Below are positions 5,038 to 5,607 of a stretch of 44,731 bases of DNA, one piece after another. A program made the position numbers and the translations under genes. The notes under the pieces are model-generated. The model saw nothing but the letters and a program-made list of their open reading frames with translations, was not told where the DNA came from and did not search any database. The stretch is from a virus. The stretch is from the IMG/VR virus record IMGVR_UViG_3300035698_016751; one strand, written 5' to 3'. The stretch's first letter is position 1, and each line of letters begins with the position of its first letter.

Positions 5038-5607
5038 ATGAATGAATTCCAATAGGTAAAACATGAAACTCAGTACGTTTACGTTTTTATACGTGAAGAC
5101 TTATCACATCCCCAACAGATTGTTCAATCCTGTCATGCAGCGATTGAAGCAAGCTCTCTGATTTCCCCTGATTCGGAACATCCGCACCTCGTTCTTTGTG
5201 GTGTTCGGAGTGAATCAGAACTCGAAAAAATCTCTGCTCGACTTAGAGCCTACGATATCCAATTCAAAGCATTCCGAGAACCAGACCGTAATAATGAATA
5301 TACCTCTATCGCTACCGAACCAATTAGTGGTAATAAGAGAAAGATATTCAAACGGTATCAATGTCTCAGGGATAAAACTGCCAAACCAAAACTAAGCGAT
5401 AATCAATGTTGTGGTAATTGCGAAAGTGGATGTTTTTCAGATAATTGCGCATGGTCATCTGGACATTGCGAATGGGAATCTGATGAAATTCCTAATTGGG
5501 TAAGTAGAGCTAGTTGTAAAGATAATGGGCAATTCAGATATTTTGCAGATGGCACAGACTGCTCCTGCTGGAAACCAATTAAGGAGAAAATAAATGTTGT
5601 GTTATGA
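5038..5607 (+). CDS. PTH2-family peptidyl-tRNA hydrolase-like protein with a Cys-rich C-terminal extension; N-terminus interrupted
   Basis: Frame 1 translation gives YVYVFIREDLSHPQQIVQSCHAAIEAS...HLVLCGVRSESELEKISARLRAYDIQFKAFREPDRNNEYTSIATEPISG. This matches the PTH2 core (KMVVVIRNDL...AQxxHAA...VVLKVxSEEEL...AGxTQI.PGxxT.LAIGP). The reading frame has no start codon after the in-frame TAG at 5053-5055. ATG 5038 (SD AAAGG) lies 5 codons upstream of that TAG. Alternatively, ATG 5063 in frame 2 joins the frame if the T5 run at 5084-5088 is read as T6. The C-terminal roughly 70 aa is Cys-rich (QCCGNCESGCF...CSCW). Confidence 0.45.

What the first reader, a model, noticed from the sequence alone, without database searches (positions are those of the whole stretch)
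5038..5607. PTH2-type peptidyl-tRNA hydrolase-like gene with an interrupted N-terminus and a Cys-rich C-terminal tail
An archaeo-eukaryotic-type Pth2 fold is unusual in a phage. It is clearly encoded (FIREDL...QSCHAA...LVLCGVRSESELEKI...TSIATEPISG), but the frame has no start. ATG 5038 with an SD is followed 5 codons later by an in-frame TAG. Alternatively, ATG 5063 joins the frame only if the T5 run at 5084-5088 is T6. The possibilities are sequencing error in a homopolymer, programmed frameshift or stop read-through, local amber suppression, or a recent pseudogene. The C-terminal roughly 70 residues are Cys-rich (CCGNCESGCF...CSCW), which suggests a metal-binding appendage. Pth2, Pnk, the ligase and the 2H enzyme together point to tRNA/translation rescue against host abortive-infection nucleases.
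Basis: seen in the sequence. Interest (0 to 1): 0.55.

Follow-up and report, generated by a model that had tools for sequence, protein, structure and literature searches.

The report
Amber-stop-gated PTH2-like hydrolase gene
The "broken" start of this phage gene is a conserved switch: a stop codon placed just after the start lets the tRNA-hydrolase-like protein be made only when a matching stop-codon-reading (suppressor) tRNA is active, a pairing seen in dozens of giant phages and some bacteria and apparently never described.

Summary
ATG 5038 has an SD, TAG is codon 6, and a 183-codon open frame follows with a confident PTH2 fold and a Cys-rich tail.

It is not an error, frameshift or pseudogene. 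The same TAG is present in three independent assemblies and at the same codon in orthologues of 82%, 60%, 55% and 52% identity. The T5 run and ATG 5063 are not conserved.

Across 56 lineages (70% identity), 39 have SD + ATG + 1-11 further codons + in-frame stop and no canonical start. These include the cultured jumbo phages GAP32, CBB, BF, fHe-Yen9-04, ME3, Arash and RsoM2USA, and Planctomycetes chromosomes.

A suppressor tRNA usually lies within 0.1-5.5 kb on the same strand. Its anticodon matches the leader stop: TAG with CUA in 25 lineages, TGA with UCA in 3, no mismatch. The base after the stop is a purine in 59 of 61 loci.

Best reading: translation starts at 5038 and the TAG is decoded by a cognate amber suppressor tRNA, gating a tRNA-ester hydrolase that belongs to a suppressor-tRNA module. 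The module here includes partner gene 5944-6399.

Weak points: no tRNA lies in this window or 2 kb beyond either end, and the enzyme's substrate is unknown. I found no paper describing this.

The parts
5025..5029 (+). Shine-Dalgarno-like AAAGG, 8 nt upstream of ATG 5038
   Evidence: Read directly. An AAAGG/AGGAG motif precedes the leader ATG in most orthologous loci.
5038..5052 (+). Leader codons ATG AAT GAA TTC CAA (MNEFQ); the true initiation site
   Evidence: Across 56 distinct loci that have one, the nearest SD-preceded ATG is in frame with the PTH2-like domain in 54. The motif M-x-G/E-F-x is shared with L004-L007.
5053..5056 (+). In-frame amber codon TAG (codon 6) plus the +4 base G; the gate
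   Evidence: Same codon in L001-L004 and the homologous position in L005-L007. At 70% identity, 39 of 56 lineages have a leader stop and no canonical start. The +4 base is a purine in 59 of 61 loci. The stop type covaries with the neighbouring suppressor anticodon.
5071..5367 (+). PTH2-fold domain (residues 12-110 of the 189-aa product)
   Evidence: Pfam PF01981 at E 2.6e-4. AF2 pLDDT above 90. Foldseek top hits are all Pth2 structures. The family profile matches PDB Pth2 chains.
5395..5604 (+). Lineage-specific Cys-rich C-terminal tail (9 Cys in 70 residues)
   Evidence: Read directly. pLDDT below 50. Absent from P0002. Cys-rich or zinc-finger-like tails occur in other members, e.g. L011.
5605..5607 (+). 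Terminal TGA, overlapping the next ORF's start region (ATG 5594)
5594..5839 (+). 81-aa ORF of unknown function, lineage-specific, inside the operon
   Evidence: Called as a gene on L001. No Pfam, NCBIfam or PADLOC hit. No homologue in the other loci.
5944..6399 (+). Conserved partner gene (151 aa; GF..ET..LK.LH.WY...W.RW.RK.PQNR motif)
   Evidence: Found near the PTH2-like gene, mostly directly downstream or fused to it, in about 30 loci and fused in proteins P0008 and P0036. No Pfam, PHROG, NCBIfam or PADLOC family. No PDB fold match.
6420..6458 (+). Strong intrinsic terminator closing the operon. It sits where Planctomycetes loci carry tRNA(CUA).
   Evidence: 12-bp stem followed by a T run. 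In L066, L068, L069, L071, L074 and L075 the tRNA-CUA lies about 50 nt after the partner gene.

Best explanation
The gene is intact.

How it is expressed:
1. Ribosomes initiate at ATG 5038 (shown by frame conservation).
2. They reach UAG at codon 6.
3. Full-length protein is made only if an amber suppressor tRNA (anticodon CUA) decodes that UAG in competition with release factor 1. This step is inferred from the covariation of leader stop and neighbouring suppressor anticodon in relatives.
4. Otherwise only a pentapeptide is released.

The early stop therefore works as a translational gate that couples production of the enzyme to suppressor-tRNA activity.

What the product is: a PTH2-fold enzyme, presumably a hydrolase of the ester bond at a tRNA 3' end. 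It belongs to a conserved module:
- a suppressor tRNA;
- the PTH2-like gene;
- either the 151-aa partner (as here) or an HD-domain-like protein.

Most likely role (inference): it acts on tRNA species generated by, or identical to, the suppressor. It would either recycle peptidyl or aminoacyl suppressor tRNA, or limit its charged pool as a feedback.

In this phage fragment the tRNA must be encoded outside the 44.7-kb window. XacN1 and RsoM2USA are precedents for a remote suppressor tRNA.
For: Not an artefact:
- Identical TAG in three independent assemblies.
- Same position in orthologues of 82, 60, 55 and 52% identity.

Family-wide:
- Loci examined: 56 IMG/VR, 14 GTDB genome and 13 cultured-phage loci.
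- At 70% identity, 39 of 56 lineages have SD-ATG, 1-11 further codons, a stop, and no canonical start before the first beta strand.
- An unbiased frame test gives 54 of 56 leader ATGs in frame.

Cognate decoding:
- Suppressor tRNAs lie on the same strand, 0.1-5.5 kb away.
- Among obligatory-leader lineages with a suppressor in the locus: 25 TAG with CUA, 3 TGA with UCA, 0 mismatches. My Fisher estimate from the counts is about 3e-4.
- CUA tRNAs make up 46 of 229 distinct tRNAs in these loci.
- The +4 base is G or A in 59 of 61 loci and never T.

Gene-specific, not global recoding:
- Long window ORFs end in TAG.
- Standard-code ORF coverage of the loci is high, and TAG-as-sense gains no more than TGA-as-sense.
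- A blind scan of 866 kb for this architecture found 39 TAG, 8 TGA and 0 TAA hits, mostly this gene.

Cultured standard-code phages:
- GAP32, CBB, BF, fHe-Yen9-04 and pEa_SNUABM_19 all carry M-x-x-TAG. They also carry a conserved internal TAG in the adjacent HD-like gene.
- GAP32 has an annotated Sup-tRNA with anticodon CUA 3 kb away.
- ME3 and Arash have CUA tRNAs 0.5 and 1.3 kb away.

Remote-tRNA precedents:
- RsoM2USA has an ML-TAG leader and no tRNA within 6 kb, yet carries one CUA suppressor in its genome (PMC8504454).
- XacN1 has an MK-TAG leader and two CUA tRNAs in its terminal repeats (PMC5852040).

Fold.

The linkage persists without a leader: L037, L051, L060 and L061 have a normal start, or show no leader stop, yet carry a CUA tRNA in the locus.
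Against: - No tRNA of any kind is detectable in the window: ARAGORN including intron mode, Rfam at E<=1 over the whole window and E<=10 around the gene.
- None is found in about 2 kb beyond either end.
- In the collapsed clusters, 11 of the 36 TAG-leader lineages lack a suppressor within the fetched flank.
- There is no direct evidence of read-through (no proteomics or ribosome profiling).
- The inserted amino acid is unknown. My attempt to assign the tRNA isotype was inconclusive.
- The Lys of the canonical Pth2 'GK' motif falls in a 2-residue deletion in this family, so peptidyl-tRNA hydrolase activity is not assured.
- Lineages are not phylogenetically independent. The three TGA/UCA cases represent about two events.
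- The test for global recoding is crude.
Confidence: 0.72

Rival explanations
1. tRNA-independent read-through. The UAG is read at low frequency by near-cognate host tRNAs. The leader then acts as a sensor of release factor 1 activity, and the hydrolase is made when termination is impaired, by analogy with RF2 autoregulation.
For: - The window and 10 other collapsed lineages have no suppressor tRNA within the fetched flank.
- The purine at +4 would also weaken termination.
- Very short leaders (22 of 61 are Met plus one codon) resemble minigenes, on which termination is known to be inefficient (background knowledge, not tested).
Against: - Stop type covaries with the neighbouring suppressor anticodon, including TGA with UCA.
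- The suppressor tRNA lies close by in most loci.
- Some members carry a second in-frame TAG inside the domain (L010, L011, L013, L016, L020, L026). Squared near-cognate read-through would make expression negligible.
- RsoM2USA and XacN1 show that the tRNA can simply be far away (PMC8504454, PMC5852040).
Confidence: 0.12
2. The whole genome, or its late genes, uses genetic code 15 (TAG = Gln). On this reading the TAG is just one recoded sense codon.
For: - Gene callers translated the codon as Q in the database proteins P0001-P0009.
- Recoded phages with suppressor tRNAs are well documented (bioRxiv 10.1101/2021.08.26.457843).
- A few members have a second TAG.
Against: - In the window TAG terminates long, well-supported ORFs: 1447-4071, 9362-9997, 22422-24293 and 43458-43757. 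No other gene needs TAG as sense.
- Standard-code ORF coverage is 0.88 in the window and similar in most loci.
- GAP32, BF and ME3 are annotated in the standard code and infect enterobacteria and Acinetobacter.
- Random recoding would not place the TAG at the same N-terminal position in about 40 lineages.
Confidence: 0.06
3. The leader is an independent regulatory mini-ORF, comparable to the lambda bar minigene or a stalling peptide. The PTH2-like protein would then be initiated separately at a non-canonical codon after the stop.
For: - SD plus ATG plus 1-11 further codons plus a stop is formally a minigene.
- The thematic link between minigenes, peptidyl-tRNA drop-off and Pth is classical (background knowledge).
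Against: - No shared start-like codon follows the stop. The next codons are GTA, GGT, GAC, GAA, AAC, ATC, CTT, ACT and others.
- The leader ATG is in frame with the domain in 54 of 56 loci, where one third would be expected for an independent uORF.
- The covariation with tRNA anticodon is unexplained under this model.
Confidence: 0.05
4. Sequencing or assembly error, homopolymer (T5 to T6) frameshift from ATG 5063, or a recent pseudogene.
For: - A T5 run at 5084-5088 and an out-of-frame ATG at 5063 do exist.
Against: - The sequence is identical in three independent assemblies.
- L004 has neither the T5 run nor the ATG but keeps the TAG.
- The architecture is family-wide, including five independently sequenced cultured phages.
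Confidence: 0.02

Closest known systems
Archaeal/eukaryotic peptidyl-tRNA hydrolase Pth2 (Pfam PF01981; structures 2zv3, 3erj, 1xty, 1q7s)
   Same: - Same alpha/beta fold.
- Shared R-x-D-L and Q-x-x-H-A motifs.
- Size of about 110 residues.
   Different: - The window protein scores below the Pfam gathering cutoff.
- The canonical 'GK' Lys lies in a deletion, and the DAGxT loop is replaced by [ED]-x-D....T.
- It is found in phages and Planctomycetes.
- It is gated by an in-frame stop and linked to a suppressor tRNA.
- This copy has a Cys-rich tail.
Stop-codon-recoded phages and their 'code change module' of suppressor tRNA, aaRS and RF (Borges et al., bioRxiv 10.1101/2021.08.26.457843)
   Same: - A phage-encoded suppressor tRNA makes genes that carry in-frame stops translatable.
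- That work proposes this as an expression timer.
   Different: - There, many late genes carry many recoded codons, and the code-change genes themselves are in the standard code.
- Here the genome is otherwise standard code.
- One or two specific genes carry a single stop at a conserved N-terminal position.
- The gated gene sits next to the tRNA.
Suppressor tRNAs of standard-code jumbo phages with unknown targets (XacN1 PMC5852040; Atu_ph07 PMC6102473; RsoM2USA PMC8504454)
   Same: - The same kind of phage. For XacN1 and RsoM2USA it is the same gene family with a TAG leader.
   Different: - Those papers looked for C-terminal extensions or simply counted stop codons, and report no target.
- The N-terminal gate in the PTH2-like and HD-like genes was not noted. 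In several records the gene is unannotated or truncated.
prfB (RF2) autoregulation through an early in-frame UGA (background knowledge)
   Same: - A translation-factor-related gene whose synthesis depends on how an early in-frame stop codon is handled.
   Different: - RF2 uses a +1 frameshift and senses its own product.
- Here the frame is unchanged, and the sensed component appears to be a tRNA.
Lambda bar-type minigenes and minigene-induced peptidyl-tRNA drop-off (background knowledge)
   Same: - SD plus AUG plus one or a few codons plus a stop.
- A functional theme of Pth.
   Different: - bar minigenes are not continuous in frame with a downstream enzyme ORF.
- Toxicity or drop-off was not tested here.
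Synthetic suppressor-tRNA feed-forward gates (PMC7969014)
   Same: - Logic: an amber codon in the target gene plus a co-expressed suppressor tRNA forms an AND gate that removes leaky expression.
   Different: - That one is engineered.
- This one would be a natural, widely conserved counterpart.

Membership tests
PTH2 (PF01981) peptidyl-tRNA hydrolase | Pfam HMM score at or above the gathering cutoff | tested here: not met
   21.6 bits against a cutoff of 23, E 2.6e-4, residues 9-90. Many homologues carry a precomputed PF01981 hit.
PTH2 (PF01981) peptidyl-tRNA hydrolase | PTH2 alpha/beta fold | tested here: met
   AF2 pLDDT above 90 for residues 12-110. The top 14 Foldseek PDB hits comprise 13 Pth2/Bit1 chains and Atu0240 (a protein of unknown function); best E about 1e-5, TM (target) 0.55-0.76.
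PTH2 (PF01981) peptidyl-tRNA hydrolase | Conserved catalytic or tRNA-binding residues (Lys of the GK motif, Asp, Thr; residue roles recalled from the S. solfataricus Pth2 literature, not checked here) | tested here: inconclusive
   The profile alignment to PDB Pth2 chains puts 'GK' in a 2-residue deletion of this family. An acidic residue ([ED]-x-D) and a Thr are conserved nearby.
PTH2 (PF01981) peptidyl-tRNA hydrolase | Hydrolysis of peptidyl-tRNA | not testable with these tools
   Needs an enzyme assay.
Programmed stop-codon suppression / read-through gene | In-frame stop conserved in position among diverged orthologues, with coding continuity across it | tested here: met
Programmed stop-codon suppression / read-through gene | A decoding agent (cognate suppressor tRNA) encoded by the same genome | tested here: inconclusive
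   Met in 28 obligatory-leader lineages of relatives, with a matching anticodon, and in GAP32, ME3 and Arash. Not found in this window or 2 kb beyond it. The rest of the genome is unavailable.
Programmed stop-codon suppression / read-through gene | Full-length product made in vivo | not testable with these tools
   Needs proteomics or a reporter assay.
Genome-wide TAG recoding (genetic code 15) | Many genes interrupted by TAG, and TAG not used as a terminator | tested here: not met
   TAG ends 5 of 38 long plus-strand ORFs in the window. Only this gene needs TAG as sense. The ORF coverage comparison agrees.
Selenocysteine / pyrrolysine insertion | Specialised tRNA (long tRNA-Sec, atypical tRNA-Pyl) and dedicated machinery | tested here: not met
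   The CUA and UCA tRNAs are 72-78 nt. The 'Pyl' and 'SeC' labels appear to follow the CTA/TCA anticodons. Hosts such as Cronobacter, Serratia and Acinetobacter lack Pyl (background knowledge). SECIS, pyl and sel genes were not searched.
Known anti-phage defence components (PADLOC) | Match to a defence-system protein model | tested here: not met
   No hit for the PTH2-like protein, the partner or the 81-aa ORF.

The most novel reading that the evidence does not exclude
A natural, mobile 'suppression module' shared by jumbo phages and Planctomycetes chromosomes.

Its parts would be:
- a suppressor tRNA;
- a PTH2-fold hydrolase;
- a partner or HD-like tRNA-end enzyme.

The synthesis of the two enzymes is gated by the tRNA's own codon.

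The hydrolase would act specifically on the suppressor, either deacylating it or recycling its peptidyl form. Together they would form a homeostatic feedback circuit that sets the level of stop-codon read-through in a standard-code cell.

The gated genes would be the long-sought physiological targets of suppressor tRNAs in standard-code phages.
Probability: 0.25. Interest if true: 0.9.

Novelty: new variant of a known kind. Interest (0 to 1): 0.8.

Why it matters
- **An open question gets concrete targets.** Papers on XacN1, Atu_ph07 and RsoM2USA explicitly could not say what the suppressor tRNAs of standard-code jumbo phages are for. This analysis names specific genes whose translation needs them: PTH2-like, HD-like, and an 'HPHDHPW' family.
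- **A natural gate with a synthetic counterpart.** A cognate early stop codon acts as an AND gate. That logic has so far been known mainly from synthetic biology and, in a more diffuse form, from recoded phages.
- **A systematic annotation error is explained.** The gene is missing or N-terminally truncated in GenBank records. In the protein database, 72 of 152 representatives with an N-terminus of 40 residues or fewer start inside the first beta strand.
- **Bacteria carry amber suppressors in their chromosomes.** The same cassette sits in ordinary Planctomycetes chromosomal contexts, so some bacteria maintain a chromosomal amber suppressor.
- **It is directly testable.** The same architecture exists in cultured phages of Cronobacter, Serratia, Yersinia, Erwinia, Pectobacterium, Acinetobacter, Salmonella and Ralstonia.

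Tried and rejected
**Looking for a tRNA in or near the window**
- Cryptic tRNA in the window: ARAGORN default, intron mode and relaxed thresholds. The relaxed runs gave only calls that look like false positives, none with a CUA anticodon among those displayed.
- Rfam over the whole window at E<=1 and over 3900-6100 at E<=10 found nothing.
- The 3-unit degenerate repeat upstream (4540-5020) is not tRNA-like and has no significant fold. Z-scores are -2.2, +0.6 and -0.3.

**Recovering the parent contig**
- Exact-match scans of IMG/VR and JGI metagenomes found nothing.
- Look-ups of end-proximal proteins gave only about 2 kb more sequence on each side, without tRNAs.

**Other dead ends**
- blastn of the region against GenBank phages: no match.
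My first impression of a tRNA-Trp origin is therefore not claimed.
- Function of the partner protein: no Pfam, PHROG, NCBIfam or PADLOC hit, and no PDB fold match at E<0.3.
- Translational bypass of the T4 gene 60 type: no matching take-off and landing codons across orthologues (read).
- Synteny of the Planctomycetes cassette with nrdAB: seen only in L075.
- Literature: seven searches found no description of the PTH2-like / suppressor link (one search reads the Borges et al. preprint). The library excludes most subscription journals.
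Full report
**1. The observation**

Window 5038-5607 (+) reads MNEFQ*VKHETQYVYVFIREDLSHPQQIVQSCHAAIEA...TSIATEPISG...(Cys-rich)...INVVL*.

- ATG 5038 is preceded by AAAGG at 5025-5029.
- The stop is TAG at 5053-5055, followed by G.
- After it, the frame stays open for 183 codons, with no ATG, GTG or TTG until codon 181.

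The description is accurate.

**2. The protein**

- Pfam PTH2 (PF01981) matches residues 9-90 at E 2.6e-4, with 21.6 bits against a cutoff of 23.
- An AlphaFold model built on 35 homologues has pLDDT above 90 for residues 12-110.
- Its 14 best Foldseek PDB hits (E 1e-5 to 2e-3) are 13 chains of archaeal Pth2 or human Bit1, plus Atu0240, a protein of unknown function.
- A family profile aligned to PDB Pth2 chains shares R-x-D-L and Q-x-x-H-A. However, the canonical 'GK' falls in a 2-residue deletion, and the DAGxT loop is replaced by [ED]-x-D....T.

So the fold is PTH2, but catalytic equivalence is not established.

The C-terminal 70 residues hold 9 Cys. They are modelled at pLDDT below 50 and are missing from the 82%-identical orthologue. 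Another member, L011, has a CxxCxGxG zinc-finger-like tail.

The family is large: 1,889 representatives (50% identity clusters) at E<=1e-10.

**3. Not an error, frameshift or pseudogene**

- The database holds a 189-aa protein identical to the window product, with Q at the stop position. The three contigs that encode it come from different samples, and all carry TAG. The Q therefore comes from the gene caller's choice of code.
- Orthologues of 82, 60, 55 and 52% identity have TAG at the homologous codon: MSGFQ*, MAGFS*, MSGFW*, MFNNGFA*.
- L004 reads GTT TTC and lacks any ATG equivalent to 5063. This removes the homopolymer hypothesis.

**4. A family-wide architecture**

I fetched 56 IMG/VR loci and 14 loci from GTDB genomes, and 13 loci from cultured phages.

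- Collapsed at 70% identity there are 56 lineages. Of these, 39 have SD + ATG + 1-11 further codons + an in-frame stop, and no canonical start before the first beta strand.
- Leaders are typically MT, MK, ML, MGFT, MKFT or MEH. Twenty-two of 61 distinct leaders are Met plus one codon.
- In a frame-unbiased test, the nearest SD-preceded ATG upstream of the domain is in frame with it in 54 of 56 loci. One third would be expected for an independent uORF.
- A blind scan of 866 kb for this architecture returned 39 TAG, 8 TGA and 0 TAA cases, mostly this gene.

**5. The link to suppressor tRNAs**

- ARAGORN finds a tRNA with anticodon CUA on the same strand, 0.1-5.5 kb from the gene, in most loci. 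It is often the only tRNA in 12 kb.
- The three lineages whose leader stop is TGA (L009, L017, L024) have UCA tRNAs instead.
- Among obligatory-leader lineages with a suppressor in the locus, the table is 25 TAG/CUA, 3 TGA/UCA and 0 mismatches. My Fisher estimate is about 3e-4, and the lineages are not fully independent.
- The base after the stop is G in 35, A in 24, C in 2 and T in 0 of 61 loci. From background knowledge of E. coli, a 3' purine favours suppression over termination.
- The linkage persists in members that have a normal start or show no leader stop (L037, L051, L060, L061). It is therefore functional, not only regulatory.

**6. Not global recoding**

- In the window, TAG terminates 5 of 38 long plus-strand ORFs. 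Only this gene needs TAG as sense.
- Standard-code ORF coverage is high in nearly all loci, and treating TAG as sense gains no more than treating TGA as sense (a crude test).
- The cultured carriers infect standard-code hosts.

**7. Cultured phages**

| Phage | Leader | Suppressor tRNA | Source |
|---|---|---|---|
| GAP32 | MAQ-TAG | Annotated Sup-tRNA, anticodon CUA, 3 kb downstream | |
| CBB | MAQ-TAG | not examined | |
| BF | MTH-TAG | none found within 2.5 kb | |
| pEa_SNUABM_19 | MTH-TAG | not examined | |
| fHe-Yen9-04 | MSH-TAG | not examined | |
| ME3 | MT-TAG | CUA tRNA 0.5 kb upstream | |
| Arash | ML-TAG | CUA tRNA 1.3 kb downstream | |
| RsoM2USA | ML-TAG | none within 6 kb, but one CUA suppressor in the genome |; PMC8504454 |

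- XacN1, Xoo-sp13 and RAS14 carry MK(K)-TAG ahead of an HD-like/PTH2-like fusion protein.
- XacN1 has two CUA tRNAs. Its authors reported that they could not identify targets for them (PMC5852040).
- In several GenBank records the gene is unannotated or truncated.
- In the GAP32 group, the adjacent HD-like gene carries a conserved internal TAG at codon 47. This splits its annotation into small ORFs.

**8. The module**

- The window's ORF 5944-6399 (151 aa) has no known family or fold match. Homologues lie next to or fused with the PTH2-like gene in about 30 loci.
- An HD-like protein is the alternative recurrent neighbour. Its hits are weak: Pfam HD at E 0.003, HDIG at E 0.0014. It sometimes has its own TAG leader.
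- A third family, carrying an 'HPHDHPW' motif, has MS-TAG or M-TAG leaders and sits beside the tRNA in L032 and L063.
- In Planctomycetes MAGs, and in one complete Rubripirellula chromosome, the cassette is PTH2-like (leader TAG) + partner + tRNA-CUA. It sits among ordinary chromosomal genes such as nrdAB, kinases, WD40, TatD and DUF1501. There is no shared synteny between these genomes.

**9. The window's own operon**

- The unit is: PTH2-like gene 5038-5607, an 81-aa ORF at 5594-5839, and the partner gene at 5944-6399.
- It is closed by a strong terminator at 6420-6458, exactly where the Planctomycetes loci carry the tRNA.
- No tRNA exists anywhere in the 44.7 kb or in about 2 kb beyond either end.
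- The fragment looks like part of a jumbo phage. It encodes NAD synthetase, an NAMPT-like protein, a helicase, a clamp loader, an HNH endonuclease, a 2H phosphoesterase and a major-vault-protein-like protein.
- A remote tRNA is therefore plausible, as in XacN1 and RsoM2USA, but it is unproven.

**10. Interpretation**

Shown:
- an intact, conserved gene;
- initiation at the leader ATG;
- a conserved early stop;
- linkage to, and anticodon covariation with, suppressor tRNAs;
- the PTH2 fold.

Inferred:
- the stop is decoded by the cognate suppressor, so that enzyme synthesis reports suppressor activity;
- the enzyme acts on tRNA esters related to the suppressor.

Not decided here:
- whether the enzyme recycles the suppressor, limits it as a feedback, or clears collateral peptidyl-tRNA.

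Seven literature searches found no description of this arrangement (one search reads the Borges et al. preprint). The closest concept is the stop-codon recoding of late genes proposed by Borges et al.

**11. Verdict**

- It is a gene-specific, suppressor-tRNA-gated variant of programmed stop-codon decoding.
- It is widespread, largely mis-annotated, and testable in cultured phages.
- Confidence in the gating model for this window is about 0.7. Confidence in any specific enzymatic role is low.

Noticed in passing
window 1447-4071 (+): An 874-aa protein with a major vault protein shoulder domain (PF11978, E 1e-23), a Vault_3 repeat and a weak SPFH/Band 7 match. It lies directly upstream of the module. 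A 46%-identical homologue occupies the same position in the IMG/VR locus L020.
   Followed up: partly
window 4540-5020 (+): Three degenerate units of about 183 nt in the non-coding stretch upstream of the gene. Each has a CTTTGTCTTCG[CT]AAGAAGAATGTCGC box (two copies) and ends in a CTGG(T)TGTCAG hairpin followed by an A-rich run. There is no Rfam match and no significant fold. They may be a promoter or regulatory array, or small RNAs.
   Followed up: partly
window 43458-43757 and 43767-44426; also 22422-24293 and 24345-24602: Two pairs of consecutive ORFs are in the same frame and separated only by TAG stops: one TAG in the first pair, two in the second. An active amber suppressor would fuse each pair. 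This could be chance.
   Followed up: no
window 33999-35069 and 37115-38233: The two ORFs match the N-terminal and C-terminal halves of the same PHROG helicase family (phrog_1967). About 2 kb containing three small ORFs separates them. This is a split or interrupted helicase gene.
   Followed up: no
L083/L089 (GAP32) 2812-3378; L084 (BF), L092 (CBB), L093 (fHe-Yen9-04), L094 (pEa_SNUABM_19) 1212-1778: The HD-like gene directly downstream of the PTH2-like gene has a conserved internal in-frame TAG at codon 47 (ELD[TS]G-TAG-GD[PS]). GenBank annotates the region as two or three small hypothetical proteins.
   Followed up: partly
L032 7230-7640, L063 5955-6350; homologues in L031 and L017: A family of about 135 aa with an HPHDHPW motif and no Pfam hit. 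It sits next to the tRNA-CUA and begins MS-TAG in L032 and M-TAG (a start-stop) in L063. It is a third kind of stop-gated gene.
   Followed up: partly
L075 (Rubripirellula chromosome OZ244207) 5971-6922; L066, L068, L069, L071, L074: Planctomycetes genomes carry a compact cassette of PTH2-like gene (leader TAG), partner gene and tRNA-CUA among ordinary chromosomal genes such as nrdAB, a Ser/Thr kinase and TatD. This implies a chromosomally encoded amber suppressor in bacteria that otherwise appear to use the standard code.
   Followed up: partly
L088 (Salmonella phage Arash) 7301-7375: The tRNA annotated as tRNA-Phe in GenBank has anticodon CTA according to ARAGORN. It is therefore probably an amber suppressor.
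   Followed up: no
L010, L011, L013, L014, L020, L026 (PG*DQEHPH) and L016 (PP*VEHPH): A second conserved in-frame TAG lies inside the PTH2-like domain of one sub-clade, at the loop before the HPH motif.
   Followed up: no
window 40974-41885 (+): An ArdC-N / MPTase-PolyVal domain protein, according to the precomputed Pfam hits on the identical gene in L078.
   Followed up: no
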